From UHGV virus genome UHGV-0224345: DNA of 16,502 nt. One strand, 5' to 3'. This DNA is from a virus. How positions within the stretch are numbered: position 1 is the first letter of the stretch; each line of letters opens with the position of its first letter. Made by a program: the position numbers and the translations under genes. Positions 1 to 16,502 of the stretch are shown one piece after another. A model generated the notes under the pieces. It made no database searches, was not told where the DNA came from, and was given only the letters and a program-made list of their open reading frames with translations.

Positions 1-498
1 TACCTTAATCGCAGTGACCGGCGTAATTTTGCTGCGTTCTTCCGCTACAGAAGGTTTACCCACGTTAGTGACTTTCACCGTGCGGGTGATCACTTCTTTC
101 GCCGTCACGGCCTTACCGATACTGCTGACCCAGCCACGAAACACATCCACCGTGCCATTCGGAAAACGGATTTTATAGGCCCGGACATCGCCGCTTTCAA
201 ACCAGCCTATAAGCCCTTTCTGACCTTCCTCTCCCGGTTTCCAGGCCAGCGTAAAACTGGTATCACCTGCAGATTTCTGCCCCTGACCGGTCGCGGTCCA
301 GTCCGCGTCTTCATCATCCAGGTAGTTATCATCGTAGGGTTCAGCCGTCATCTCGCCCGGCGTCAGATCCTTCACCTTAGCCAGTCGCTGCCAGTCATCG
401 TCTGACAACGGGTTTGCATAAGCATCAGCCTTGCCGTTGTAAACCCACAGAGTGGTACCGGCACCTTTTACCGGCTCCAGGGGATTTGGTGTTGCCAT
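1..498 (-). CDS. V: Major tail protein V, N-terminal part; gene runs off the window start
   Basis: Reverse-complement from ATG at 498 translates [20 protein letters not shown]...[38 protein letters not shown], matching lambda gpV as I recall it. No stop before position 1, so it is absent from the ORF track. Confidence 0.9.
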
Positions 499-505
499 AT
501 CGTCC

Positions 506-901
506 TCACATCTCGTATGTAATGGAATAAGTCAGATCCGCAGAGCTCCATAACGCCATATCGTCATCACGACGATACTCATAGCCCTGCGTAACCATCG
601 TGGTAATCAGTCCTGCCAGTGCCGGGATCGCAGTCATCGCCGGGTAAATCCGGCTTTCCATCCACTGATCAAGCTCTGAATCCGGTACCTGTGCCGGTAA
701 AAACACCTCAATATGCAGCGTGGCCCGCCAGGTATCTGCATCCAGCTCTTCACCGGTATACTCTGCATCCGTCAGATAAACCGCGATCGCAGGAAAATCC
801 TCTTCGTCAAAAACAACGGGGCGACCATCAAACAGCGTCGCCCCGTGTTCATGCTGCTCGAGTGCATCCAGCACTGCGGCACGAATGTCAGTGTGTTTCA
901 T
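506..901 (-). CDS. U: Tail terminator protein U
   Basis: 131 aa, [17 protein letters not shown]...[13 protein letters not shown]; same length and near-identical to lambda gpU. ATGA start/stop overlap with Z. Confidence 0.95.
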
Positions 902-1473
902 CGTTTTATTGCAATCCTCAGTTGTTGTTTCAGCGCGTATGCCAGTTCTTTAGGCAGGCGTTCACGCCGGATACGGTCAACATTCTCATCAAATGCCTGT
1001 TTCAGTGGGGCCGCCATCGGGATTTTCACCACCTGAATGGGAAGGCGATTACGCTTTTTTCTTCCCTTGTCGTCATTGCCCTCCTCATATCTGGCCTGGG
1101 GAAGACGTTGCATAACATGCCAGCGCCCATTATTTAATCGCTGGATAAATGCCCGCTGATAACGATGCTGACCGGCTTTGAGTATGCTGTTCGGACGACG
1201 TCCCAGCATTCTGATCCCCAGCTTAATCACAGGGAGATCACCGCGGTTAACGATAATTCTGGCATTCGGATTTCTGACCGTCGCCCGTTTCAGTCTGGAC
1301 CGTTCCTTTACCAGTTTCCGTCTCACCCTGGTTTCCCGGGCAACCTGTGACGAAGACTGATTAATCGCCGTTGTGGCCACGCGGTTAATCGTCATTGCTG
1401 AAGCCGCCGGAATGGCGTTTTTACGAACCCGGCTCAGATTATCAATCGCCTGATCAAGCCCTTTTATCGCCAT
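898..1473 (-). CDS. Z: Tail completion protein Z
   Basis: 191 aa; N-terminus MAIKGL and C-terminus RRERLPKELAYALKQQLR resemble lambda gpZ, middle more diverged. Position between U and FII as in lambda. Confidence 0.9.
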   Translation of the reverse strand: MAIKGLDQAIDNLSRVRKNAIPAASAMTINRVATTAINQSSSQVARETRVRRKLVKERSRLKRATVRNPNARIIVNRGDLPVIKLGIRMLGRRPNSILKAGQHRYQRAFIQRLNNGRWHVMQRLPQARYEEGNDDKGRKKRNRLPIQVVKIPMAAPLKQAFDENVDRIRRERLPKELAYALKQQLRIAIKR

Positions 1474-1488
1474 AATTTCACCCTGCGT

Positions 1489-1842
1489 TTATCGTCGCCG
1501 GTTAACAGCGGGTGGTTGCCCACGGTTGAGCCAGAGATGACAGCTTCCACCATCATCCGGCGAAACCCGGTCTATCCAGAAGTTTTCCTCACCGATGGTC
1601 AGCGTGTCTCCACGCCGCAGTTGCCGCACATCATCAGTCCGGACAAACAGGGACGGGCTGGAGCCTTCAACGCGCACGCCCTGTCCGGCATAGCTGATAT
1701 TTTCAGGGTCATCAAAAACACCACGTATTACTGCGCCGGACTGCTCACCGGATGTCATGGTGGCTGACGTTCCCATGTACCCGCGTATCGTTTCATCGGC
1801 GCGGGCAATGGCAGCATCGAACAGGTTATCGAAATCAGCCAC
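1489..1842 (-). CDS. FII: Head-tail joining protein FII
   Basis: 117 aa, MADFDNLFDAAIARADETIRGYMG... near-identical to lambda gpFII. GTG start preceded by GGAGG. Confidence 0.93.
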   Translation of the reverse strand: MADFDNLFDAAIARADETIRGYMGTSATMTSGEQSGAVIRGVFDDPENISYAGQGVRVEGSSPSLFVRTDDVRQLRRGDTLTIGEENFWIDRVSPDDGGSCHLWLNRGQPPAVNRRR

Positions 1843-1853
1843 AGCGCCTCCCG

Positions 1854-2240
1854 TTATTGCATTCTGGCCAGGCCGCGTTCTGTCATTTCGGCTGCCACAC
1901 CGGCAGAGACACGGAACGCCGTTCCCGGCAGCACAAATGCCACAGTGTCATCCCGCGTGGCGTGAAGTGCATCAGTATGCAGCGTCACCAGTGCCACAAC
2001 CGTGACCAGATCAGCCGTATCAGTCACGGTATCCGGCTGCGCTGATACAACCTCATTTTCATGTCCGGTCAGCGCATTTTCCGGGCTGATAGGGGTATCC
2101 TGATCGGCAGTGTCATCAAGCTCCTCTTCCAGCTCTGCCACACGGAGCGCCAGTTCTTCTTTCGTTCCCGTCAGGCTGACATCACGGTTCAGTTGCTCAC
2201 CCAGCTCCTGAAGACGGGCAATCAGTTCATCTTTCGTCAT
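1854..2240 (-). CDS. FI: DNA packaging accessory protein FI
   Basis: Start chosen at MTKDELIARLQELGEQLNRDVSLTGTKEELALRVAELEEELDD (ATG 2240, GGAGGAG upstream); C-terminus AFVLPGTAFRVSAGVAAEMTERGLARMQ matches lambda gpFI. The track ORF extends 13 codons further upstream from a GTG. Confidence 0.9.
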   Translation of the reverse strand: MTKDELIARLQELGEQLNRDVSLTGTKEELALRVAELEEELDDTADQDTPISPENALTGHENEVVSAQPDTVTDTADLVTVVALVTLHTDALHATRDDTVAFVLPGTAFRVSAGVAAEMTERGLARMQ

Positions 2241-2263
2241 GAACTCCTCCACAGAGAGAAAAT

Positions 2264-2277
2264 GGCCCCGAAGGGCC
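2264..2277 (-). terminator. GC hairpin with UUCG loop plus pyrimidine/U-rich tail in the E-FI intergenic region
   Basis: Minus-strand RNA reads GGCCC-UUCG-GGGCC followed by AUUUUCUCUCU, immediately 3' of the E stop (2282-2284). Confidence 0.4.
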
Positions 2278-2281
2278 ACGA

Positions 2282-3307
2282 TTACGCCAGTTGTACGGAA
2301 ACGAACTCATCAGGGTCAGCCAGCAGCATCAGCGGTGCTGACTGAATCATGGTGAACTCACGCGCCGGATCGCCGGTGGTCACCCAGTTTTTCGGGTAAC
2401 GGGCAGAGGCGTTAATGCCTTCGCGCTGTGCATCCGCATCCTGAATGCAGCCATAGGTGCGCAGACCGCGTGCATGAGTGTTACCCAGCACCATCGTGTT
2501 GTCCGGCAGGAAGTTCTTTTTGACGCCGTTTTCCACGTACTGTCCGGAATACACGACGATGGCCACATCGCCATACATTCCCTTATAAGACACCGCTTTG
2601 CCCAGGTCTTTTACCGCTGTCTCCAGTTCGGAATGAGAGCCGCGACGGGTATCCAGCTTCTCCCTGACGGCTTTGAAGGAACGGAACAGCGCCCAGCCTT
2701 TCGGGTCAAACACAATGATATTCACCACGCCGCTGGCGTTCAGCGCGTAGGCTTCGATATCGTCGGTCGGGTCATACGTGGACTTGTCACGCTTGCTCCA
2801 CTCCGTGCCGCCGGACTGTGTGATGTTGTTCGCCGCACTGCGGCCCATATCCACCTCAACCGGATCAAAGGCTTCACCGGTCATGGTGTATTTGCCCTTA
2901 AGCACGGCAGAAACTGCCTGCATCTCTTCGACCTGGGCAATGGCCAGCTCTTCGTCACGCATGTTCTGCATGATGATGCGACGGCGGCGGTAAGCCGGGT
3001 CCGCCAGATTCTGCGGATCTTCATCCGGCAGGCGACGCAGGGTCATCTGCGGATTCACCTCATGCTTCGGCTTGACATATCCCGGCGTAAATTCAGAGGT
3101 GGAGCCGCCACGGGAACGGATAACCTCACCGGAAACAATCGGCGAAACGTACAGCGCCATGTTTACCAGTCCCGGAATTTGTGAGAGATAGACTTTCTCC
3201 GTGGTGAAGGGATAGCTCTCACGGAAAAAGAGACGCAGAAACAGCGGATCAAACTTAAATTTCTGCTCATTTGCCGCCAGCAGCTGGGCGGTTGTGTACA
3301 TCGACAT
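2282..3307 (-). CDS. E: Major capsid protein E
   Basis: 341 aa, MSMYTTAQLLAANEQKFKFDPLFLRLFFRESYPFTTEKVYLSQIPGLVNMALYVSP...; same length and near-identical to lambda gpE. Confidence 0.97.
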   Translation of the reverse strand: MSMYTTAQLLAANEQKFKFDPLFLRLFFRESYPFTTEKVYLSQIPGLVNMALYVSPIVSGEVIRSRGGSTSEFTPGYVKPKHEVNPQMTLRRLPDEDPQNLADPAYRRRRIIMQNMRDEELAIAQVEEMQAVSAVLKGKYTMTGEAFDPVEVDMGRSAANNITQSGGTEWSKRDKSTYDPTDDIEAYALNASGVVNIIVFDPKGWALFRSFKAVREKLDTRRGSHSELETAVKDLGKAVSYKGMYGDVAIVVYSGQYVENGVKKNFLPDNTMVLGNTHARGLRTYGCIQDADAQREGINASARYPKNWVTTGDPAREFTMIQSAPLMLLADPDEFVSVQLA

Positions 3308-3324
3308 AAAAAAATCCCGTAAAA

Positions 3325-3346
3325 AAAAGCCGCACAGGCGGCCTTT
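3325..3346 (-). terminator. Stem-loop plus U-tract in the D-E intergenic region (minus-strand RNA)
   Basis: Minus-strand RNA AAAGGCCGC-CUGU-GCGGCUUUU, then UUUUACGGGAUUUUUUU running into the E ATG. The 56-nt D-E gap matches lambda spacing. Confidence 0.45.
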
Positions 3347-3363
3347 AGTGATGAAGGGTAAGG

Positions 3364-3696
3364 TTAAACGATGCTGATTGCCGTTCCGGCAAACGCGGTC
3401 CGTTTTTTCGTCTCGTCGCTGGCAGCCTCCGGCCAGAGTACATCCTCATAACGGAACGTGCCGGACTTGTAGAACGTCAGCGTGGTGCTGGTCTGGTCAG
3501 CAGCAACCGCAAGAATGCCAACGGCAGCACCGTCGGTGGTGCCATCCCACGCAACCAGCTTACGGGTGGAGGTGTCCAGCATCAGCGGGGTCATTGCAGG
3601 CGCTTTCGCACTCAATCCGCCGGGCGCAGTTGCGGTATGAGCCGGGTCACTGTTGCCCAGCGGCTGGTAATGGGTAAAGGTTTCTTTGCTCGTCAT
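3364..3696 (-). CDS. D: Head decoration protein D
   Basis: 110 aa from the second ATG ([27 protein letters not shown]...[11 protein letters not shown]), matching lambda gpD. AAGGGA sits 5 nt upstream of this ATG. Confidence 0.95.
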
Positions 3697-3705
3697 AAAC
3701 ATCCC

Positions 3706-4311
3706 TTACACTGGTGTGTTCAGCAAATCGTTAACGGCATCAGATGCCGGGTTACCTGCAGCCAGCGGTGCCGGTGCCCCCTGCATCAGACGATCCAGCG
3801 CAGTGTCACTGCGCGCCTGTGCACTCTGTGGTGCAGCTGCCAGAATGCGGCGGGCCGTTTCCACGGTCATACCGGGGGTTTCTGCCAGCACGCGTGCCTG
3901 TTCTTCGCGTCCGTGAGCCTCCTCACAGTTGAGGATCCCCATAATGCGGCTGTTTTCTGCCGCAACCGCTGCGGTGATCTGCGCGTTCACGTCCGGCTGC
4001 GCCGCGCTGGCGTTCTCGCCCTCCGTCGCTGGCACCACGTCAGTAACGTCAGCCTGCGAAGCAGTGGCTGAAACAGTTGTTGATTGAGTCTCTTTGGTCA
4101 TTCGCCCTCCTGAGAGACGGGATTTACGTGCATCCAGTGCATCACGCATAACGGTGATCGCATCGGTACTGTTAACAAGTTCATCAGCCAGTCCGGCATC
4201 AATGGCCTCCTGACCGCTGTACACTGCAGCCTCGGTATCCAGCACAGCCTGCACGGACAGGCCGGTATATGCCGACACCTTCTGCGCAAACATCTGGCGG
4301 GTTGCGTCCAT
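3706..4311 (-). CDS. Nu3: Scaffolding protein Nu3, in-frame internal start within C
   Basis: ATG at 4311 (MDATRQMFAQKVSAYTGLSV...) lies 714 nt downstream of the C start and shares the C stop, the same geometry as lambda Nu3. Confidence 0.8.
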   Translation of the reverse strand: MDATRQMFAQKVSAYTGLSVQAVLDTEAAVYSGQEAIDAGLADELVNSTDAITVMRDALDARKSRLSGGRMTKETQSTTVSATASQADVTDVVPATEGENASAAQPDVNAQITAAVAAENSRIMGILNCEEAHGREEQARVLAETPGMTVETARRILAAAPQSAQARSDTALDRLMQGAPAPLAAGNPASDAVNDLLNTPV

Positions 4312-5005
4312 CCGGGACTGCAGTGTCTCCCGGACGTCATCCGGAAGATGGCTGTAGGGATTGCCATCCACCTTATGGCTGCCGCTGTAAATCAGCGTGA
4401 TTTCCACGCCCTGTTTCTCCAGCGCAGCACCGTAATTGCTGTGAGCCATCATGACGCCGATGGAGCCTGTCCGGGCGGTCTGCGTGACCAGACGCCGGGA
4501 GGCGGCGCTGGCAAGCAGCTGACCTGCACTGCAGTTCATGTCGTTGGCCAGCGCCCATACCGGTTTTATGTCTCGCACACGGGCGATGATGTCAGCACAG
4601 TCAAATGCTCCCGCCACCATTCCGCCTGGCGTGTCCATATCGAGCAGAATGCCGTCCACCATCGGATCGCTGGCAGCCTGTTGCAGACGGGCGATAATGC
4701 CGTTGTAACCGGTCATCCCCGAATACGGCTGTAGCGCCCGCGTCCGGCTGACCAGCGTGCCGGAAACCGGCAGCACGGCGATGCCGTTCATGACCTGATA
4801 ACTGCGGGCCTGTCGTGGTCCGTCATCATCACCGGATAATGCCAGCGCCGCGGGTGCCTCCTGGGCAGTCAGGCTGTCACCGGACACCGCATCCGTCAGG
4901 CGGCTGATCCCAAGCTGGCCTGCAAGCGCACAAAAGAAAACCCGCGCATAGGCGGGTTCAAGCATCAGCGGCTCATTAAAGGCCATACTGGCAATATGCG
5001 GGAGA

Positions 5006-5025
<20 letters not shown>
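3706..5025 (-). CDS. C: Head maturation protease / scaffold protein C
   Basis: Lambda gpC homolog of 439 aa beginning VTAELRNLPHIASMAFNEPLMLEPAYARVFF from GTG at 5025 (GGAGGAGAAGA upstream). The start overlaps the B stop by 20 nt as in lambda. The track's 477-aa ORF is an upstream in-frame extension. Confidence 0.93.
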
Positions 5026-8706
<3,681 letters not shown>

Positions 8707-8732
<26 letters not shown>

Positions 8733-9252
8733 TCAGCAACCCCGGTATCAGTTCATCCAGCGCGGCTGCTTTGTTCATGGCTTTGATGATATCCCGTTTC
8801 AGGAAATCAACATGTCGGTTTTCCAGTTCCGGAAAACGCCGCTGTACCGAGAGAGGGATCCCGTCAAGAATACTGGCAATTTCACCTGCGATCCGTGACA
8901 GCACGAAAGTACAGAATGCGGTTTCCACCACCTCTGCGGAGTCTCTGGCATTCTTCAGCTCCTGTGCGTCGGCCTGCGCACGCGTAAGTCGATGGCGTTC
9001 GTACTCAATAGTCCCAGGCTGGAGATCTGCCTCACTGGCAGCCCTGTAATCCTCAACCTCTTTACGGAGTTTTTCATTTTCGATATCAGCTTCCCTCTGC
9101 GCATACCACTGAATTGCCATGGCGGTATCAAATACAGATTCAACGCCCTTACCACCTCCGGAGACGCAAGGGAGTCCCTGAGACTGCCAGCGTTCAATCG
9201 TTCGCGGATCCACGTTGAAAATTTCGGCAAGTTTCTTTTTATTAACCTTCAT
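8707..9252 (-). CDS. nu1: Terminase small subunit Nu1 (N-terminal DNA-binding region diverged from lambda, remainder lambda-like)
   Basis: 181 aa. From about residue 70 ([60 protein letters not shown]...) it matches lambda Nu1 as I recall it. The N-terminal part ([41 protein letters not shown]...) is only partly conserved. Confidence 0.95.
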
Positions 9253-9277
9253 GAAACAGTCTCACAATAAATACAGG

Positions 9278-9393
9278 GGCCGACATGAAAGTGCCCGAAA
9301 ATGACTTTTTTAGGCGTTTTCATGTCGGACCTTTTACGGATTCGATATTAGAAAAAACAAATAGTTATGTTCGAGAAGTACCGACATGATTTT
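9278..9393. promoter_or_regulatory. cosB-like terminase binding region: three copies of CCGACATGA in the R1 / R2 (inverted) / R3 arrangement
   Basis: CCGACATGA at 9280-9288 and 9381-9389 (direct), TCATGTCGG at 9320-9328 (inverted), lying between cosN and the Nu1 start, where lambda has R3-I1-R2-R1. Confidence 0.6.
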
Positions 9394-9428
9394 CCCCGGA
9401 AAATTTTCATAAATAGCGAAAACCCGCG

Positions 9429-9440
9429 AGGTCGCCGCCC
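9429..9440 (-). other. cos: cosN cohesive-end site (12-nt GGGCGGCGACCT on minus strand); cosQ-like sequence about 9457-9470
   Basis: Reverse-complement of 9429-9440 is GGGCGGCGACCT, followed on the minus strand by CGCGGGTTTTCGCTATTTATGAAAATTTTCCGG. Plus strand 9441-9470 is the reverse-complement of a lambda right-end-like sequence (GGGTCCTTTCCGGCGATCCGACCGGTTACG). Confidence 0.9.
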
Positions 9441-9646
9441 CGTAACCGGTCGGATCGCCGGAAAGGACCCACGAAATGATAATGATTATCATCTATATAA
9501 GGTTTATCACAACATGTGTGTACGCCATCAAACCACGAGAAATAATCAATTATGACGCAGGTATCGTATTAATTGATCTGCGTCAAATTAACGTAAAAGC
9601 AACTTCAGATAATACAAATCAGCAACACTGAATATGGGGAAACATT

Positions 9647-9832
9647 ATGTCATCAAAGAACAGAACCCGCAGAACAACAACCCGCAACATCCGATTTCCA
9701 AACCAGATGATTGAACAAATTAACATCGCTCTTGATCTGAAAGGTTCAGGAAACTTTTCAGCGTGGGTTATTGAAGCCTGCAGAAGAAGGCTGTCAACAG
9801 AGAGTTCGGGTATGAATTACATAATTAAGTAA
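9647..9832 (+). CDS. Small ribbon-helix-helix (Arc/MetJ/CopG-like) putative DNA-binding protein
   Basis: 61 aa, MSSKNRTRRTTTRNIRFPNQMIEQINIALDLKGSGNFSAWVIEACRRRLSTESSGMNYIIK. Basic N-tail, then strand (NIRFP), helix (MIEQINIALDLKG), helix (NFSAWVIEACRRRL). GGGGAAA sits upstream of the ATG. Lies in an AT-rich island. Confidence 0.65.
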   Translation: MSSKNRTRRTTTRNIRFPNQMIEQINIALDLKGSGNFSAWVIEACRRRLSTESSGMNYIIK

Positions 9833-9964
9833 CATGGTGTTCACAGAACACGCAGTTACCGGACACATCAGTTTTCCATTCGCTCCCCGGCAGTACAGGC
9901 TTCCCCTCTGACGGGATAGCCTGAAAAAATAACACAGAAAATTATTTGTTATAATTAATATAAC

Positions 9965-10105
9965 TTACTCAAAAAAAAGCGACGAGAAAATCAGCATCAA
10001 CGAACAATAAGCGCCAATACGTGATAACAAATGGCAGCCATATTTATCTGCAGTATAAGCAATGGACAGGATAACCACACCAGAAACCGTCAGCATAAAA
10101 TCCAT
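9965..10105 (-). CDS. Candidate 46-aa hydrophobic peptide (not in ORF track; hand-translated)
   Basis: Minus-strand ATG at 10105 to TAA at 9965-9967 gives MDFMLTVSGVVILSIAYTADKYGCHLLSRIGAYCSLMLIFSSLFFE. GGGGAAG lies 6 nt upstream. AT-rich context, convergent with the RHH ORF. Confidence 0.25.
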   Translation of the reverse strand: MDFMLTVSGVVILSIAYTADKYGCHLLSRIGAYCSLMLIFSSLFFE

Positions 10106-10455
10106 TTGAACTTCCCCGGACAAAATCGACTCATCTAAAGATTTACAGCTCTTTTTATTATCAATATGTTAAAAGTAAAATAAACAGATGTTCAATAACA
10201 CGAATACAAAAACGTGCTGAAATTCAATGAATCCATTTCTGTGTCATCAATTAATAGTGATAAACATCCGGCTTCTTCCACCATCGCACCGGACAGGCGA
10301 CTATGAGGGGACAACGCCGCGCTCCGTTAACGCGGTAAACCCCGGTGTGTATCGTTTTTGATTATCCCCGCACACTCGCGCAGAGGAGTCTCCCTGTCGG
10401 GCTGCGGTCTCTGTTAATGAGGGAATACAGCGACGATACGGCGCATCAACAAAAC

Positions 10456-10929
10456 TTATTTCAGGCACTGAGTGCGGATATAGTCCTGTGCCCCTTCCAG
10501 TTGCTTGTGCATCGTCATCAGCCGCTCTCTGAGGGTGAAATAATCCCGTGTAACGGTGTCTGCCAGTTGGGGGCCGGTTGCATTATCCACGCCGGAGGTG
10601 GTGGGGGCTTCACGCACGGAGCCTGGACAGGTGGCGTTGATCCGCAGGCGCTTACGACCAGCGGCAACGTCAGCGCGAAGAGTTTCATTTTCAGCTCTCG
10701 CATCGGCTAATTCCCTCGAGTATTTTGCATCGAGCGCAGCAACATCGCGCTGGCGCACCTGCATATCAGTAATGGTTGCGTTCGCCAGCTTCAGTTCACT
10801 GGCTTTGTTATCGCGCTGCGCTTTGTAGGTAATCGCGTTATCACGGTAATGGTCTGTTGCCATCCACAGCGCACCACAGGCCACCAGCAGAATAACGATA
10901 AACGCGGAAAGCATTCGGTTTATGTTCAC
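10456..10929 (-). CDS. Rz: Spanin inner-membrane subunit Rz (i-spanin)
   Basis: 157 aa; [69 protein letters not shown]...[22 protein letters not shown] strongly resembles lambda Rz. GTG start overlaps the upstream ORF stop (GTGA); an alternative ATG is at 10914. Confidence 0.9.
10518..10703 (-). CDS. Rz1: Spanin outer-membrane lipoprotein Rz1 (o-spanin), embedded in the +1 frame of Rz
   Basis: 61 aa, [61 protein letters not shown]. Lipobox (VVSAC) and proline-rich [11 protein letters not shown] core as in lambda Rz1; nested entirely within Rz. Confidence 0.85.
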
Positions 10930-11057
10930 CCCAGCAACCCCGACGAAGACAACATCATCCAGGCCATGGAAAGAAAAAGAGCAACCAGCATTAGTGAAAA
11001 TGAAATGCCGACAATTACACAGAGGATCTTCGCCAGCGTTATGAGTTTGTCTGACAT
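10926..11057 (-). CDS. Small single-pass membrane protein (43 aa), translationally coupled to Rz
   Basis: [43 protein letters not shown] from ATG at 11057 with GGGAGG 7 nt upstream; stop TGA overlaps the Rz GTG. The track shows a 73-aa version extended upstream. Confidence 0.45.
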
Positions 11058-11071
11058 GCTTAATCCTCCCT

Positions 11072-11254
11072 TCACGATTTCAACGCAATGACCAGTTTTG
11101 CCAGCCCATACAGCATCGGGGACACAGCAACACCGACCGCCACCCACTTAATGGCAAAAGCCAGTGCTCTGCTGATGTCATCAGTTACAGGCGCTTTCAG
11201 TTCAAGGCCATTTTTCATAGTCAACCTCAACAGAATTCGTTTATACTTCGCCAT
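11072..11254 (-). CDS. Small protein (60 aa) with C-terminal hydrophobic segment
   Basis: [60 protein letters not shown] from ATG at 11254 with AAGGGAGAA upstream; stop 14 nt before the next ORF's ATG. The track shows a 71-aa version from an upstream GTG. Confidence 0.45.
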
Positions 11255-11410
11255 GTTCTCCCTTGCCTTACTCAAGGTCAGAAACACAAAACCTCGCTTG
11301 GTGCCAACAAACGGGGTTTTTACTTTTATTCACTTACGTTTCGCCAGTTCGCAGGATTTCGTGTTATCCGCCCGCGTGGCCATTCCTCATTTTTCAGCAA
11401 AATATTCTGC

Positions 11411-11944
11411 TTATCTGTCGATTCCCCAGCACGCCAGCGCGCTCTCCTGGTCACGACGGGATACCTGACCATAACAGTTATTTGAGCGGATACGGCAGTC
11501 TCTGCCACCGTCCTTAATCCACCAGCGAATCGCCTCACACGCTCCCCTGCGATCACCTGCATTAATTCGTTTATAAAACGTCGACGGGAAACACTTACCG
11601 GGACCAATGTTGTACGGACAGAATGACGCGATCCCCGCTTTCTGGGGTTCACTCAATGGCACTCTGATGTTTTTCTCCACCCATGCCAGCGCCTTATCAC
11701 GCTCAATGGCGTTAACCCGGTCGCATTTTTCCTTCGACAACTTCATGCCCGGGACGACAGGTTTACTATCCACCAGGATGGCACCGCGGCAGATGGTCCA
11801 GATACCCGCGCCATCACGGTATGCCGTGGTGTGGTTACCTTCCTTTTCATCCAGAAACTGGTCGAGGATTTCAGGCGCAGGCGCACCTGCGGCAATCAGC
11901 GCCAGAACGGCAGCCGACAGGCCGTATTTGATTTTGGTGTTCAT
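11411..11944 (-). CDS. R: SAR (signal-anchor-release) endolysin, T4-lysozyme-like muramidase
   Basis: 177 aa, MNTKIKYGLSAAVLALIAAGAPAPEILDQFLDEKEGNHTTAYRDGAGIWTICRGA... Weakly hydrophobic Gly/Ala-rich N-terminal segment, then a lysozyme-like E...D...T catalytic motif; resembles phage 21 R21 / prophage RrrD-type lysozymes. Confidence 0.9.
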   Translation of the reverse strand: MNTKIKYGLSAAVLALIAAGAPAPEILDQFLDEKEGNHTTAYRDGAGIWTICRGAILVDSKPVVPGMKLSKEKCDRVNAIERDKALAWVEKNIRVPLSEPQKAGIASFCPYNIGPGKCFPSTFYKRINAGDRRGACEAIRWWIKDGGRDCRIRSNNCYGQVSRRDQESALACWGIDR

Positions 11945-11994
11945 GGATATTTATCAGGGTTTATCGATTTCAAATCCCTGGATATGTTAAGTCT

Positions 11995-12339
11995 TCAGGC
12001 CAGCGGTGGAGTCTTCAGAGAACCAGTAATTATTCCCGGTAGTTTTCCTCTGTAGGTTATCAACACATCCTGCGCCTCTAAAATTACGGGGCGCTTTTCC
12101 GGCAACGGACCATCCCCTTCACATAACCCGGCAGCAACATCCATGAAAAACTGCTTCGCCTGCTTTTTCGCCTCAGCTTCGTAAAACTCCAGCGTGGCAT
12201 CTTCAGTACGGTCAAGACTAATCGCCACATCTGGCAACAACAGTGACGGATACCCACCAATTTCCAGTGCCACAGTAACAGTAATCTTATCCGGGTAATT
12301 ATTTATCCCTTTAACAACCAGTTCGTATTTTTTCTTCAT
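11995..12339 (-). CDS. Conserved-looking protein of unknown function inserted between holin and endolysin
   Basis: 114 aa, MKKKYELVVKGINNYPDKITVTVALEIGGYPSLLLPDVAISLDRTEDATLEFYEAEAKKQAKQFF... ATG lies 4 nt after the holin stop. No transmembrane segment evident. Confidence 0.7.
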   Translation of the reverse strand: MKKKYELVVKGINNYPDKITVTVALEIGGYPSLLLPDVAISLDRTEDATLEFYEAEAKKQAKQFFMDVAAGLCEGDGPLPEKRPVILEAQDVLITYRGKLPGIITGSLKTPPLA

Positions 12340-12343
12340 CGCT

Positions 12344-12559
12344 TTACTCTCCCCGCGCCGCCTTACGCCGGTCCTCTCTGATTTTGAAATACAGGTTAGT
12401 CAGATATGTCAGCAGCCCAAACAGCAGACTCCCCAGCACGCCTATTGCCGCCCACTGAGACGGGGAAACCCTGTCCAGCAACTGCAGGAACCAGTAGCCC
12501 GTTCCCACCGCTGACGTGGTGTATGACACACCTGTTGTGATTTTTTCCATCTGGTACAT
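12344..12559 (-). CDS. S: Class II holin (phage 21 S21-type pinholin) with dual-start motif
   Basis: 71 aa, [71 protein letters not shown]; strongly resembles phage 21 S (S2171/S2168) as I recall it. Met1 and Met4 give a holin/antiholin dual start. Confidence 0.9.
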
Positions 12560-12599
12560 ACCCCGTCTCCCGTTATCCGGAAGCTCACAACAATATAAA

Positions 12600-12623
12600 G
12601 ACCACCGGCACACACCGATGGTC
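12600..12623 (-). terminator. Strand-specific intrinsic-terminator-like hairpin about 40 nt upstream of the holin start
   Basis: Minus-strand RNA GACCAUCGG-UGUGUG-CCGGUGGUC (9 bp including one G-U, which would be a C-A mismatch on the plus strand), followed by CUUUAUAUUGUUGUG. Confidence 0.5.
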
Positions 12624-12635
12624 CCTTGCGCAGGC

Positions 12636-12881
12636 TTACATCATCATGTCGCTGTCAGGTGTGGGTTCACCGCCATCTGAAGCACTCCCGTCACCCGCGA
12701 TACCTTCCGGCTCCGGAACCGCTGGTACGCCCAGCAGCTCATCCAGAATGGCATCCACTTCTGCATCAAGACGCGACTCAAGGTTCTGGCGGAGTTTCTG
12801 TTTCAGTGCGCTCAGGACTTCTTCAGAGCGCAGGACTTCCTTCACTGCCTCAGCAGTGACCAGGGATGTGATTTCTGACAT
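12636..12881 (-). CDS. Small acidic protein of unknown function (81 aa)
   Basis: [81 protein letters not shown] from ATG at 12881. Protein-like composition, whereas overlapping plus-strand ORFs are Ser/Arg/Pro-rich. Weak ribosome-binding site. Confidence 0.55.
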
Positions 12882-12918
12882 GGGATTTTCTCGTTGAAAG
12901 GTGTTGTCAAGAAAGTGA

Positions 12919-13101
12919 CTACGGAATGAGCGGATCTTCGGGTTTGCTTCCGGCTGACTGACTGGCGCTGATTCTCTCAGCGGCCCTTTTATCAATCTGC
13001 CTGCGCCAGAAATCGCGCACTGCCCTGTACCCACCCGAAAGAAGATACATAACACAGACTGCCATACAGAAGTACAGCATTACCTGATGAATAAATGTCA
13101 T
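12919..13101 (-). CDS. Small membrane protein (60 aa), N-terminal transmembrane helix and basic C-terminal tail
   Basis: MTFIHQVMLYFCMAVCVMYLLSGGYRAVRDFWRRQIDKRAAERISASQSAGSKPEDPLIP; ATG at 13101 with a weak Shine-Dalgarno sequence. Confidence 0.4.
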   Translation of the reverse strand: MTFIHQVMLYFCMAVCVMYLLSGGYRAVRDFWRRQIDKRAAERISASQSAGSKPEDPLIP

Positions 13102-13199
13102 AATTTCTTACCGTTATGGTTGACAATGAGAACTGTTTTCATTTAGAAATGATTGATGTCGAAAGCATCTTTTCTTTACATTCTCCATTGGGATTACCT

Positions 13200-13236
13200 C
13201 CGCCAGCTTCCATTCCTGCCGCTGGCGGCTTTTTTT
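13200..13236 (+). terminator. Rho-independent terminator oriented on the plus strand, abutting the NanS-p-like stop codon
   Basis: Plus strand CCGCCAGC-(13-nt loop)-GCTGGCGG then C and seven T (13230-13236). On the minus strand the hairpin is preceded by an A-run and not followed by U. Confidence 0.6.
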
Positions 13237-13237
13237 A

Positions 13238-15214
13238 TCATGCCGCGATGTCCGCGTTGTTCACTTCCACCTTCACACTGTCAATCAGCAGCGTATATGT
13301 CGCCGCCTTTGATATGCCTGTCAGTTGCAGTTTGTCCGCCGCCCCTGATGCCGGAGATTTCACCAGTGTGAACGGCGTCCCCCGTTTCTCATCCAGTACC
13401 GGCGTCACCTGAATGCTGTTGTTTCCGGCAAACTCAAAAGCCAGTGTGTGCCATCCGTTATCAAAGACCCCGAACGTTTCCAGCTTCGCATTCGGCTTCT
13501 TGTGGTGCATCGCGTTCAGGTTCGTCGCATCCGTCTGCAGAAAGAAGGACATCAGCATGTCGTTGCCTTCCTCTGCCAGCGTCACTCCCTCCGGCAGGGA
13601 CGACAACTGCCAGTAAATGCCCAGGGCAAACTGATTCGGCACCAGTGAACCCGGCAACTTAAACCGTACGCTCACACGTCCCCCCTTCTTCAGTAACTCC
13701 ACTCCCTGTCCGGCTGCATCATGCTCCAGAAACCAGATGTGGTTTTCCGGTTTATTCAGTTGCAGGGCCTTACCTCCCGTAGCCCCCGCATCACTGACCA
13801 CCGCTTCAGCAATGTTTTTGTTAACATTGTCTCCGCTCGCCGGTTTGTGATAATAGCGCCAGCCCTGTGATGCCAGGTCTTCGCCGGACGCCAGCAGACT
13901 CATCAGGGTTCGGTTACTGACCGGGGCTTCCGGCTCTCTCTCCGTACCTTCACCGGAAGGTCCGGTGGGCTTCACCGTATCAGGCTGTTTTCCGGTAATG
14001 AATTCAGCGTTTCTCCCGGCATGCACAAGAATCGCCGTTGCCAGACGGTCGGAAATAATCCCACGACGTGCCCATGATCCAAAATGCGTTTTACGGTCGG
14101 CCGTCGTCCAGGTTTTGGCGTCCGTTCGACCACCGGCTCCGTAATACCCAATATCCGCAACATCCGGATCTTCTGACGGCTCGTTGGTACCCACATTTCG
14201 CCCGTTTTCATCCGTCATAAACGGCACAAAGAAGATTTTTTTTGCGGATTTCGTCTTGTATGCACCATACACCGCATCGTATTGCGAAGAATAAGTCTGC
14301 TTCCAGTAGTAGGTCGTGTCGCCACAAATCCAGGGAACCGATGACGGAGAGCCCCCGAGACACTGACCTCCGAATTCCGACAGGTCAGAACGATATTTTT
14401 CCACCATGGAATCAAACAGCCCCGGCTGAGTGGCGTATGCACCCTGTTTCAAATCAAACTCGCCCTGCATCCAGACCACTGCAAGCAGAATATTTTTAGG
14501 GTTGGCCTTCAGTGCGGCCTGAGTACGGGTAAGCAGGTCCTTGTACAGTGGCTTATCAACACCCCAGCGTGCCGAGGTCTCGCTTGCGCCGGTGGATTCG
14601 CTGAAGGTACCTTCATCGCCCGCCAAAAATGCAGAACCACCACGGCAGCACGGAACCAGAAGAATACCGGCATTCGCCGGAATAAACGGCAACAATTTCT
14701 TCGCGATATGTAATCCCTGCCCCACGCATCCATACTGAGCTGCGCTGGCTTTCGGGTGTGAAAACTTACTCAAATCCTGAACATCATGCAGGCAGTGGTC
14801 CGCAGGAATAATGTCATTGTAGTTACAGGACGCACCACCCGGCGTGACAGTGCTGCGACGCGCCAGCTGTTTAATACGCGGGTCCGGACGGTCATATGTC
14901 TCCGGCAGCGGAAGCCCTTCACCATACGCCATACCGTTTGACTGCCCGGCCAGGGCAACAACAAAGTAATACTCCGGGTTGCTGGTGGTGCTGATAACTG
15001 CGCCTTCTCCATCCGACGGCTTCACCACCACAGGTGTGGTGACATCACCTTCCGCCGCAATGGCCTGCATCAGGGTATAAGGCGTGATGGCCACCGGACT
15101 GCCAAATGGCTGCCACCCCTCCTTCAGTTTTTGTGTCAGTCGTTTCGCAAGGTCTGACGGCGATGCCGCCCTGACAACATCATAGTGTTTAAATGCCATG
15201 GTTCTTTCCACCAT
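13238..15214 (-). CDS. nanS-p: Prophage-encoded sialate O-acetylesterase (NanS-p-like; N-terminal DUF1737-like region plus SGNH-type esterase and C-terminal domain)
   Basis: 658 aa. MAFKHYDVVRAASPSDLAKRLTQKLKEGWQPFGSPVAITPYTLMQAIAAEGD... resembles the NanS-p / YjhS-like esterases of EHEC lambdoid prophages, which sit between the late regulatory region and S. The likely start is the second ATG at 15199 (MAFKH). Confidence 0.85.
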   Translation of the reverse strand: MVERTMAFKHYDVVRAASPSDLAKRLTQKLKEGWQPFGSPVAITPYTLMQAIAAEGDVTTPVVVKPSDGEGAVISTTSNPEYYFVVALAGQSNGMAYGEGLPLPETYDRPDPRIKQLARRSTVTPGGASCNYNDIIPADHCLHDVQDLSKFSHPKASAAQYGCVGQGLHIAKKLLPFIPANAGILLVPCCRGGSAFLAGDEGTFSESTGASETSARWGVDKPLYKDLLTRTQAALKANPKNILLAVVWMQGEFDLKQGAYATQPGLFDSMVEKYRSDLSEFGGQCLGGSPSSVPWICGDTTYYWKQTYSSQYDAVYGAYKTKSAKKIFFVPFMTDENGRNVGTNEPSEDPDVADIGYYGAGGRTDAKTWTTADRKTHFGSWARRGIISDRLATAILVHAGRNAEFITGKQPDTVKPTGPSGEGTEREPEAPVSNRTLMSLLASGEDLASQGWRYYHKPASGDNVNKNIAEAVVSDAGATGGKALQLNKPENHIWFLEHDAAGQGVELLKKGGRVSVRFKLPGSLVPNQFALGIYWQLSSLPEGVTLAEEGNDMLMSFFLQTDATNLNAMHHKKPNAKLETFGVFDNGWHTLAFEFAGNNSIQVTPVLDEKRGTPFTLVKSPASGAADKLQLTGISKAATYTLLIDSVKVEVNNADIAA

Positions 15215-15392
15215 CTGAAAAATAATTCTTTAAAATACCTGACATGTAATACAGAAAAAACACAAAACCATACCTTAAATAAAAACCTCATCATCAAGCA
15301 GATATGCATGGATAAACTACAAGACGAGATATAAACCACCCTGCATTTAAATAAACAATAAACAACATCAGAAAAATAATTCTGCTCTATGG

Positions 15393-15421
15393 TTTACATT
15401 CAAAAATATCATTTATACTTT
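15393..15421 (+). promoter_or_regulatory. Candidate sigma-70 promoter for the 111-aa ORF
   Basis: TTTACA (15393-15398), 17-bp spacer, TACTTT (15416-15421); alternatively TATACT at 15414-15419 with a 15-bp spacer. AAGGAA ribosome-binding site before the ATG at 15460. Confidence 0.35.
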
Positions 15422-15459
15422 TCAGAACATCACCAGCAAGACATAAACAAGGAAACTAA

Positions 15460-15795
15460 ATGAAGTGGATTGTGATTGATACAGTTATCCAGCCATCATG
15501 CGGAATATCTTTTTCAGTCATATGGAGTAAAATAAAATTAATAATCTGGTATCAATCGGATGCTTTCTTACCTCCTGAAAGTATATTTACACTGACTCAC
15601 ACAGGTATCATGCTCAATAACAAAGTGCTACCTGTAACCATTTACAACGTAGCACCATTCAATAAAACATTCTGGAATTTAATCAAAAACAGCCAGGAAT
15701 GTCCTACAAATACAGATAACGTATTGAATGAATGCTTTAATAACCGTTGCACTCTGCAAATATGTCCTTATGGACTAAAACAACAAAGTCCATAA
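15460..15795 (+). CDS. Hypothetical protein (111 aa), AT-rich, Cys-containing, divergently transcribed from the NanS-p-like gene
   Basis: [111 protein letters not shown]. Good ribosome-binding site (AAGGAA 6 nt upstream). Markedly AT-rich compared with flanking phage genes. Confidence 0.55.
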
Positions 15796-15830
15796 GGAGT
15801 TTACTCACATCTGACAAAATCAATATAAAC

Positions 15831-15850
15831 AGCCCCTCCGGAGAGGGGCT
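15831..15850. terminator. GC-rich hairpin AGCCCCTC-CGGA-GAGGGGCT; U-rich tail only on the minus-strand side
   Basis: 8-bp GC-rich stem with 4-nt loop. Minus-strand RNA continues GUUUAUAUUGAUUUUGUC; plus-strand RNA continues GGAGAGUGGCGC. Confidence 0.4.
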
Positions 15851-16287
15851 GGAGAGTGGCGCTATGTGCCATTGCATGGTGCCGGGTGCCTCCCGGTGAA
15901 TTCAGTACCAGCACCTGAATCCGCGATTATCCCATATACCTACTCGCTGATTGCCCCTCCGCACAGGGGGATTCACCATGCCAGTTTCTTTTAACAAACT
16001 CCCCGCAAACCAGACAACAGTCAACCGCCTGAATTGTGAAGTATTTAAAAATTTCTCCCGCTAACTGATACCCGGCTAACAGTCTGGCGTTTTCTTTTTC
16101 AGCAACGGGAAAGCAACAACCACCACACCCGCCACCAGCACACCGTCAGCCAGCACTGACATTATCCGGCTGCTGCAATGCCACTCACAAAAACAGTAAG
16201 CAATCACTTTTTACCGTAACAAGTGATAATCCAGATATGTATCTACCCCAGATGAGTAATCCGAAGTTCATCCATACCACAGGTACT

Positions 16288-16502
16288 GGCTATTCTGTTG
16301 TACTCCTGAACAAGAGCAAATAATTCTGAATTAGCAACCATGAACTCATCGCAAACCCGGTGATGCTGCCAACTTACTGATTTAGTGTATGATGGTGTTT
16401 TTGAGGTGCTCCAGTGGCTTGCAGCATCACCGGGTTTGCGATGAGTTCATGGTTGCTAATTCAGAATTATTTGCTCTTGTTCAGGAGTACAACAGAATAG
16501 CC
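16288..16502. repeat. Perfect 82-bp inverted repeat (arms 16288-16369 and 16421-16502) around a 51-bp spacer; the right arm runs to the last base of the window
   Basis: The reverse-complement of 16421-16502 is identical to 16288-16369 (checked base by base). Confidence 0.85.
16359..16420 (+). mobile_element. IS1 left terminal fragment (about 62 bp including the left inverted repeat), truncated
   Basis: GGTGATGCTGCCAACTTACTGATTTAGTGTATGATGGTGTTTTTGAGGTGCTCCAGTGGCTT matches the IS1 left end as I recall it. The expected continuation (CTGTTTCTATCAGC..., the insA start) is absent. Confidence 0.75.

What the first reader, a model, noticed from the sequence alone, without database searches (positions are those of the whole stretch)
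16288..16502. Truncated IS1 end embedded in a perfect 82-bp fold-back at the window edge
The first 62 bp of IS1 are present, but the element then breaks off and the sequence becomes the exact reverse-complement of the preceding 82 bp, including IS1 bp 1-11. A perfect palindrome of this size centred on an insertion-sequence end is unusual for native DNA. The likeliest explanations are a fold-back or chimeric assembly artefact at a repeat-induced contig end, or a genuine IS1-mediated inverted duplication. Either way it marks where the lambdoid late region is interrupted; no Q-like coding sequence or late promoter is recognisable in the preceding 450 bp.
Basis: seen in the sequence. Interest (0 to 1): 0.6.

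Follow-up and report, generated by a model that had tools for sequence, protein, structure and literature searches.

The report
IS1 insertion with fold-back contig-end artefact
The window ends in an ordinary IS1 insertion in an E. coli lambdoid prophage, and the perfect 82-base fold-back after IS1 base 62 is most likely an assembly or library artefact at a repeat-broken contig end, not a real rearrangement.

Summary
Window 16421-16502 is the exact reverse complement of 16288-16369 (82 nt, 100%), with a 51-nt spacer. IS1 bp 1-62 occupy 16359-16420. The right arm stops on the last base of the window, so 82 nt is a lower bound.

One complete E. coli genome, SCU-176, is 100% identical to window 12900-16420. 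It carries a complete 768-bp IS1A at the same base and in the same orientation, with a 9-bp target duplication (CGCAAACCC). tRNA genes and the Q antiterminator follow it. Many genomes, such as EC958, have the empty site.

The window leaves the SCU-176 sequence after IS1 bp 62 and turns back onto its own opposite strand at IS1 bp 11. Neither base is an IS1 terminus, so transposase chemistry does not explain the join. There is no microhomology and no quasi-palindrome precursor.

The junction is absent from 5,426 complete E. coli genomes (more than 62,000 IS1 places), from GTDB representative genomes, from IMG/VR and from JGI metagenomes. Both window ends lie in multi-copy DNA, as in a short-read contig.

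Verdict: a known IS1 insertion plus a fold-back artefact. Interest is low.

The parts
16243..16358 (-). C-terminal remnant of a 117-aa hypothetical ORF that the IS1 insertion splits
   Evidence: The ORF is intact in EC958 (L002 3344-3697, minus strand). Window 15900 corresponds to L002 3001. SCU-176 annotates the other half as a partial hypothetical CDS to the right of IS1.
16288..16369 (+). Left arm of the fold-back: 71 nt of prophage flank (16288-16358) plus IS1 bp 1-11 (16359-16369). This is genuine genomic sequence.
   Evidence: It is 100% identical to SCU-176.
16350..16358 (+). IS1 target site CGCAAACCC, the left copy of the 9-bp target-site duplication seen in SCU-176
   Evidence: SCU-176 reads CGCAAACCC|IS1|CGCAAACCC. 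The empty site in EC958 has one copy.
16359..16420 (+). IS1 (IS1A type) bp 1-62. The left terminal inverted repeat is bp 1-23 (16359-16381). The insA GTG start is bp 56-58 (16414-16416).
   Evidence: It matches the 768-bp IS1A of SCU-176 for exactly 62 bases. RefSeq annotates an IS1A family transposase starting at IS1 bp 56.
16370..16420 (+). 51-nt non-palindromic spacer (loop) of the fold-back, equal to IS1 bp 12-62
16420..16421 (.). Fold-back junction: IS1 bp 62 joined to the complement of IS1 bp 11, with zero microhomology on either side
   Evidence: The 27-mer across the junction is absent from three public collections and from complete E. coli genomes.
16421..16502 (+). Right arm: reverse complement of 16288-16369, running to the last base of the window. 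Judged to be artefactual sequence.
   Evidence: It maps back at 100% in reverse onto the same SCU-176 bases as the left arm, whereas SCU-176 continues with IS1 bp 63-768.

Best explanation
The real biology is a simple IS1 (IS1A-type) insertion into the Q-proximal part of the late operon of a mosaic lambdoid prophage of E. coli. It lies at target CGCAAACCC, between the Q and tRNA genes, which are off the window to the right, and the DUF3927, iraM-like, esterase and lysis genes.

The window is best read as a short-read contig that breaks at this multi-copy element. Its last 82 bases are not genomic. They are a fold-back, meaning the contig's own opposite strand, appended after IS1 bp 62.

The most likely source is one or a few inverted chimeric molecules or reads made during library preparation or amplification. 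The assembler would have used them to extend the contig at a point where the true path, the interior of IS1 shared by many copies, was ambiguous. A purely graph-level hairpin traversal is the other possible artefact route.

The true sequence after 16420 is expected to be IS1 bp 63-768, then CGCAAACCCTCTGTATAGC..., tRNA-Arg, tRNA-Ile and Q, as in SCU-176.

Shown: the fold-back geometry, the complete IS1 at the identical site in a relative, the non-terminal junction, the lack of microhomology, and the uniqueness of the junction.

Inferred: that the window end is a contig end, that the data were short reads, and the chimeric-read mechanism.
For: - SCU-176 is 100% identical to window 12900-16420. 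It continues with a full 768-bp IS1A flanked by the 9-bp duplication CGCAAACCC, then tRNA-Arg, tRNA-Ile and Q. EC958 and many other genomes show the intact empty site.
- The right arm is an exact reverse copy of bases already present 51 nt to its left, and it ends on the final base of the window.
- IS1 is multi-copy: 22 places in SCU-176 and a median of 10-11 per genome. The left window end lies in a phage tail gene present up to 8 times per genome. Both ends are therefore typical repeat-induced breaks of a short-read contig.
- A junction 27-mer made only of IS1 sequence has 0 hits in GTDB representative genomes, IMG/VR and JGI metagenomes. No complete E. coli genome spans the junction, with this flank or at any of more than 62,000 IS1 places. 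It is a one-off, not a recurrent IS1 product.
- The junction has 0 nt of microhomology, no quasi-palindrome precursor (18/82 identity to IS1 63-144) and no priming complementarity longer than 5 nt. No orderly in vivo mechanism is suggested.
- Palindromic contigs are a documented error of short-read SPAdes assemblies of bacterial genomes (PMC9455707).
- Chimeric molecules joining a strand to its own nearby reverse complement are a documented library-preparation artefact (PMC10908179). Fold-back read artefacts are also reported in long-read data (PMC12870357 and PMC13141652, abstracts).
- Inference only: in a node-centric de Bruijn graph with k = 63, the unique flank unitig would end exactly at IS1 bp 62 (k-1). 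That would place the junction at the natural repeat boundary of the contig.
Against: - No reads, assembly graph or source record could be examined, and the source contig was not found. That the window end is a contig end is assumed, not shown.
- The library artefacts described in PMC10908179 are usually seeded by short natural inverted repeats. None is present at this junction.
- A path-extending assembler would also stop at the outer end of the second arm of a genuine short inverted repeat. Ending exactly at the arm boundary therefore does not by itself discriminate.
- An 82-bp arm with a 51-nt spacer would not necessarily be lethal or unstable in E. coli (my own knowledge, not tested here).
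Confidence: 0.88

Rival explanations
1. A genuine in vivo fold-back inverted duplication. A break or stalled fork inside IS1 near bp 62 was repaired by strand switching or fold-back synthesis onto the complementary strand at IS1 bp 11. This would create a real palindrome, with arms of at least 82 bp and a 51-bp spacer, in the chromosome of the sequenced strain or a subpopulation.
For: The structure is exact and lies in otherwise authentic sequence. A spaced palindrome of this size could be tolerated in E. coli (own knowledge). An assembler would also stop at the outer end of a real inverted repeat.
Against: - There is no microhomology or short inverted repeat to seed fold-back priming or template switching, and no quasi-palindrome precursor.
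- The junction is absent from 5,426 complete E. coli genomes and three large collections.
- The closest relative has an ordinary complete IS1 at the site.
- If the arms extended much further, the palindrome would be expected to be unstable in wild-type E. coli through SbcCD (own knowledge).
Confidence: 0.07
2. An IS1 transposase-mediated rearrangement, such as intramolecular replicative transposition giving a duplicative inversion. This is the 'IS1-mediated inverted duplication' the first reader proposed.
For: The fold-back is next to an IS1 end. IS1 is known to promote adjacent deletions and inversions (established knowledge of the IS1 family).
Against: Transposase-made joints connect an IS terminus (bp 1 or bp 768) to target DNA and create 8-9-bp target duplications. 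Here the new joint connects IS1 bp 62 to the complement of IS1 bp 11, both internal, with no new duplication. The IS1 terminus itself (16358|16359) is an unaltered simple-insertion junction, identical to that of SCU-176.
Confidence: 0.02
3. A covalently closed hairpin end of a linear DNA molecule, such as an N15-type telomere or a hairpin-capped break or replication intermediate. Reads would run round the end into the opposite strand.
For: Hairpin-ended replicons do give contig ends that continue into the other strand (PMC13293297).
Against: - The turn-around contains 51 nt of non-palindromic IS1 sequence instead of a tight telomere palindrome.
- The region is internal to chromosomal prophages in all relatives and continues normally past the site.
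- No protelomerase is annotated among the window's genes in near-identical relatives, which carry only head, tail, terminase, lysis and esterase genes.
Confidence: 0.01

Closest known systems
Simple IS1 (IS1A) insertion, as in E. coli SCU-176 (NZ_CP054345.1, 2476403-2477170)
   Same: Same target base, same orientation, same left flank (100% over 3.5 kb) and identical IS1 bp 1-62.
   Different: The window shows only bp 1-62. The rest of the element, the right terminal repeat and the second copy of the 9-bp duplication are replaced by the fold-back or lie off the window.
Palindromic or fold-back contigs and inverted chimeric reads (assembly and library artefacts: PMC9455707, PMC10908179, PMC12870357)
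   Same: A contig that turns into its own reverse complement, located at a contig end next to a multi-copy repeat, and not reproduced in independent assemblies.
   Different: Only the last 82 nt fold back, not the whole contig as in the M. bovis cases. [quoted passage not shown] Read-level evidence is unavailable.
IS1-mediated adjacent inversions and deletions (intramolecular transposition)
   Same: An inverted-orientation rearrangement adjacent to an IS1 end.
   Different: The joints are not at IS1 termini, there is no second IS1 copy and there is no new target duplication.
Fold-back (palindromic) inverted duplications initiated at short inverted repeats, and quasi-palindrome template switching
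   Same: The product geometry: two inverted arms around a short unique spacer.
   Different: The short inverted repeat or microhomology that defines these mechanisms is absent: 0 nt at the junction and at most 5 nt nearby.
Hairpin telomeres of linear phage-plasmids and replicons (N15 type)
   Same: The sequence at a contig end continues into the opposite strand.
   Different: A 51-nt non-palindromic loop, no protelomerase, and an internal chromosomal prophage position.

Membership tests
IS1 family insertion sequence | Left terminal inverted repeat GGTGATGCTGCCAACTTACTGAT at the element boundary | tested here: met
   Window 16359-16381. It is identical to the annotated IS1A of SCU-176.
IS1 family insertion sequence | Complete element of about 768 bp with insA and insB' (programmed frameshift) and the right terminal repeat | tested here: not met
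   Only bp 1-62 are present, with just 7 nt of insA. The complete element is present at the same site in SCU-176.
IS1 family insertion sequence | 8-9-bp target-site duplication | tested here: inconclusive
   The left copy CGCAAACCC is present at 16350-16358. The right copy would lie beyond the window. The duplication is seen in SCU-176, and a single copy in the empty site of EC958.
IS1 transposase-mediated inversion or duplication | The new joint connects an IS1 terminus (bp 1 or bp 768) to target DNA | tested here: not met
   The joint is IS1 bp 62 to the complement of bp 11.
Assembly or library fold-back artefact | Located at a contig end adjoining a multi-copy repeat | tested here: inconclusive
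   The right arm ends on the last window base. IS1 has about 10-22 copies per genome, and the left end is also in repeated phage DNA. That the window end is a contig end could not be verified, because the source was not found.
Assembly or library fold-back artefact | Not reproduced in independent assemblies of related genomes, which show an ordinary structure instead | tested here: met
   There are 0 hits for the junction in three collections and in 5,426 complete E. coli genomes. SCU-176 has the ordinary IS1.
Assembly or library fold-back artefact | The junction is supported only by rare chimeric or soft-clipped reads | not testable with these tools
   No reads or assembly graph are available.
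Fold-back priming or quasi-palindrome template switch (in vivo) | Microhomology or a short inverted repeat at the switch point | tested here: not met
   0 nt on either side of the junction. The best nearby complementarity is 5 nt. Identity to the sequence expected at that position is 18/82.
Hairpin telomere of a linear replicon | A tight palindromic turn-around and a protelomerase gene | tested here: not met
   The loop is 51 nt and non-palindromic. Annotated near-identical relatives show only lambdoid late genes, and the site is internal.

The most novel reading that the evidence does not exclude
The fold-back is real: a spontaneous, microhomology-independent inverted duplication that began inside IS1 (bp 62 joined to the opposite strand at bp 11) in a prophage late operon. 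That would capture an early palindrome-forming event of the kind that seeds palindromic amplification, here in a natural E. coli isolate.
Probability: 0.06. Interest if true: 0.45.

Novelty: not a real feature. Interest (0 to 1): 0.07.

Why it matters
It matters mainly as quality control. The last 82 bases of this window should be trimmed and not interpreted, and the IS1 copy should be treated as complete.

Fold-back ends of this kind can create spurious inverted repeats, false hairpin or telomere calls and duplicated gene fragments in large contig collections.

The biology that remains is an IS1 insertion between Q and the tRNAs on one side and the lysis and esterase genes on the other, in the slot that holds stx in Stx-converting phages. 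That is ordinary and already represented in a complete genome. It could be polar on late gene expression, but this was not tested.

Tried and rejected
- **Source contig.** I looked it up through exact-protein searches with the 658-aa esterase and a 61-aa DUF3950 ORF. No 16.5-kb contig turned up. The second protein is in 8,082 blocks, too common to help.
- **Flank-IS1 junction scans.** An exact scan for the flank-IS1 junction in metagenome, viral and GTDB contigs gave 0 hits, so no further carriers of this insertion were found there.
- **Junction-crossing ORF.** I looked for one to use as a unique protein handle. None reaches 30 aa.
- **IS1 variant.** An apparent 3-base extension past the junction suggested a possible IS1 variant. 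That variant has CCA, not GCA, at bp 63-65, so it was BLAST running over a mismatch.
- **Microhomology, seeding inverted repeats and a quasi-palindrome precursor.** None was found.
- **Terminal fold-backs in other contigs.** I checked the 13 other loci held at that point for the same kind of terminal fold-back and found none. The sample is too small to give a base rate.
- **Assembler arithmetic.** k = 63 would give k-1 = 62, and k = 83 would give k-1 = 82. These are suggestive but not decisive, so I kept them as inference only.
- **Two broad literature searches** returned nothing specific.

Full report
**Observation.** The last 215 bases of the window form a perfect spaced palindrome. The arms are 16288-16369 and 16421-16502, 82 nt each and 100% complementary, separated by 51 nt. 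A script confirmed exact reverse-complement identity. It is the only long inverted repeat in the window. Its chance expectation is about 6e-42. As a single strand the 215 nt would fold at -104.5 kcal/mol, z = -26.6, which is the trivial consequence of an 82-bp stem. The right arm ends on the final base of the window, so 82 nt is a lower bound.

IS1 begins at 16359. Window 16359-16420 equals bp 1-62 of a 768-bp IS1A, after which the window reads GCAGCATCACCG where IS1 has CTGTTTCTATCA. The spacer is IS1 bp 12-62, and the symmetry centre (16395) is IS1 bp 37. Only the GTG start codon and four further bases of insA are present (IS1 bp 56-62).

**What the locus looks like elsewhere.** A search of 5,426 complete E. 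coli genomes with window 15900-16502 found one genome, SCU-176 (NZ_CP054345.1), that matches through to IS1 bp 62 at 100%. Many others, including EC958, JJ1887 and other ST131 strains, match at 100% only up to the base before IS1.

In SCU-176 the sequence is ...CATCGCAAACCC | IS1 (768 bp, annotated as an IS1A family transposase with programmed frameshift) | CGCAAACCCTCTGTATAGC.... This is a textbook simple insertion with a 9-bp target duplication. EC958 has the uninterrupted site CATCGCAAACCCTCTGTATAGC.

To the right of the site, both genomes carry tRNA-Arg, tRNA-Ile, the Q-type antitermination protein, RusA and a DUF968 protein, all on the minus strand. To the left lie DUF3927, an iraM-like gene, a SASA-family esterase, DUF1378, DUF826, holin, lysozyme, Rz, terminase, head genes and tail genes. 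The late operon is therefore read right to left in window coordinates. IS1 sits just downstream of Q and the tRNAs, inside a 117-aa hypothetical ORF. Q and its promoter lie beyond the window end.

The prophage is mosaic:
- Window 2-9491 is 99.7% identical to strain S1-ZIM-01-A.
- Window 12900-16420 is 100% identical to SCU-176.
- SCU-176 has a different head module.
- No deposited phage genome carries IS1 at this site.

**The junction.** The window follows SCU-176 exactly up to IS1 bp 62. It then continues with the reverse complement of IS1 bp 11-1 and of the 71 flank bases. BLAST places the last 82 bases back on the same SCU-176 bases as the left arm, in reverse, at 100%.

Neither IS1 bp 62 nor bp 11 is an IS1 terminus, while the true IS1 terminus joint at 16358|16359 is unaltered. 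From established knowledge of IS1, transposase products join a terminus to target DNA with an 8-9-bp duplication. The fold-back is therefore not a transposition product.

There is no microhomology on either side of the junction. No complementarity longer than 5 nt exists that could prime a fold-back. What follows the junction has no resemblance to what should follow it (18/82 identity to IS1 bp 63-144). Template switching at a quasi-palindrome and fold-back priming at a short inverted repeat are therefore unsupported. An apparent three-base extension of some IS1 matches past the junction came from a variant with CCA at bp 63-65 and is not a real match.

**Recurrence.** A 27-mer across the junction made only of IS1 sequence, and so independent of the flank, has no exact match in one genome per species of GTDB, in IMG/VR or in JGI metagenome contigs. 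No complete E. coli genome spans the junction, either with this flank or at any of more than 62,000 IS1 places. The event is a one-off. It is not a product that IS1 sequence repeatedly generates, whether biologically or algorithmically.

**Contig-end context.** IS1 is multi-copy, with 22 places in SCU-176 and a median of 10-11 per genome. The left end of the window lies in a phage tail gene found up to 8 times per genome. Both ends are thus the sort of place where short-read contigs break.

Palindromic contigs are described as assembly errors in SPAdes assemblies of bacterial isolates (PMC9455707). Chimeric molecules that join a strand to its own nearby reverse complement are described as products of sonication and enzymatic-fragmentation library preparation (PMC10908179). 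Fold-back artefact reads are also described for long-read platforms (PMC12870357 and PMC13141652, abstracts).

As an inference only: in a node-centric de Bruijn graph with k = 63, the unique flank path would end exactly at IS1 bp 62. The fold-back may therefore begin precisely at the natural end of the contig. Other values of k could be made to fit other numbers, so I give this little weight.

**Rivals.**
- A real inverted duplication cannot be excluded without reads. An assembler would also stop at the outer end of a real inverted repeat, and a palindrome with 82-bp arms and a 51-bp spacer might be tolerated. It needs an unseeded strand switch inside IS1, has no precedent in the genomes searched, and competes with a documented ordinary structure in the closest relative. 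I give it about 7%.
- A transposase-mediated inversion is contradicted by the junction coordinates (about 2%).
- A hairpin-ended linear molecule does produce contig ends that run into the other strand (PMC13293297). It is contradicted here by the 51-nt non-palindromic loop, the internal chromosomal position and the absence of a protelomerase among the annotated genes of near-identical relatives (about 1%).

**What could not be done.** The source contig was not located. That the window end is a contig end, and which sequencing and assembly methods were used, therefore remain assumptions. No reads were available.

**Verdict.** The IS1 insertion is real and already represented in a complete genome. 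The fold-back is most probably not a feature of the genome. Confidence in the artefact reading is about 0.88. Interest is low.

Noticed in passing
window 16243-16358 (minus strand); L002 3344-3697: The IS1 target lies inside a conserved 117-aa hypothetical ORF between the prophage tRNA genes and DUF3927. The ORF is intact in EC958 and in all ten contigs returned for the esterase look-up. Its function is unknown.
   Followed up: partly
window 1-16420: The prophage is a mosaic. Window 2-9491 (tail, head, terminase) is 99.7% identical to S1-ZIM-01-A, and 12900-16420 is 100% identical to SCU-176, which has a different head module. No complete genome covers more than 84% of the window.
   Followed up: partly
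window 9492-10326: This stretch between the small terminase gene and Rz is unmatched in the two nearest genomes. It carries a 61-aa DUF3950 ORF (9647-9832, plus strand) that is extremely common in other lambdoid prophages, appearing in 8,082 index blocks.
   Followed up: partly
window 15830-15851 (minus strand) and 15953-15969: A terminator-like G+C-rich hairpin followed by a T run lies on the minus strand, between DUF3927 and the iraM-like gene. A diverged second copy of its 17-mer lies 121 nt away.
   Followed up: no
window 15765-15798: A perfect 12-bp inverted repeat with a 10-nt loop (TCCTTATGGACT / AGTCCATAAGGA) overlaps the 3' end of the iraM-like gene at 15460-15795.
   Followed up: no
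window 15200-16420: This Q-to-esterase interval is the position that holds stx in Stx-converting phages (own knowledge). 61 Stx2-type phage records match parts of it. The window has no stx genes and no tRNA genes; the tRNAs lie beyond the IS1.
   Followed up: partly
window 1-400: The left end of the window falls inside a phage tail protein gene that occurs 2-3 times in many E. coli genomes and up to 8 times in some. That is consistent with a repeat-induced contig break at this end too.
   Followed up: partly
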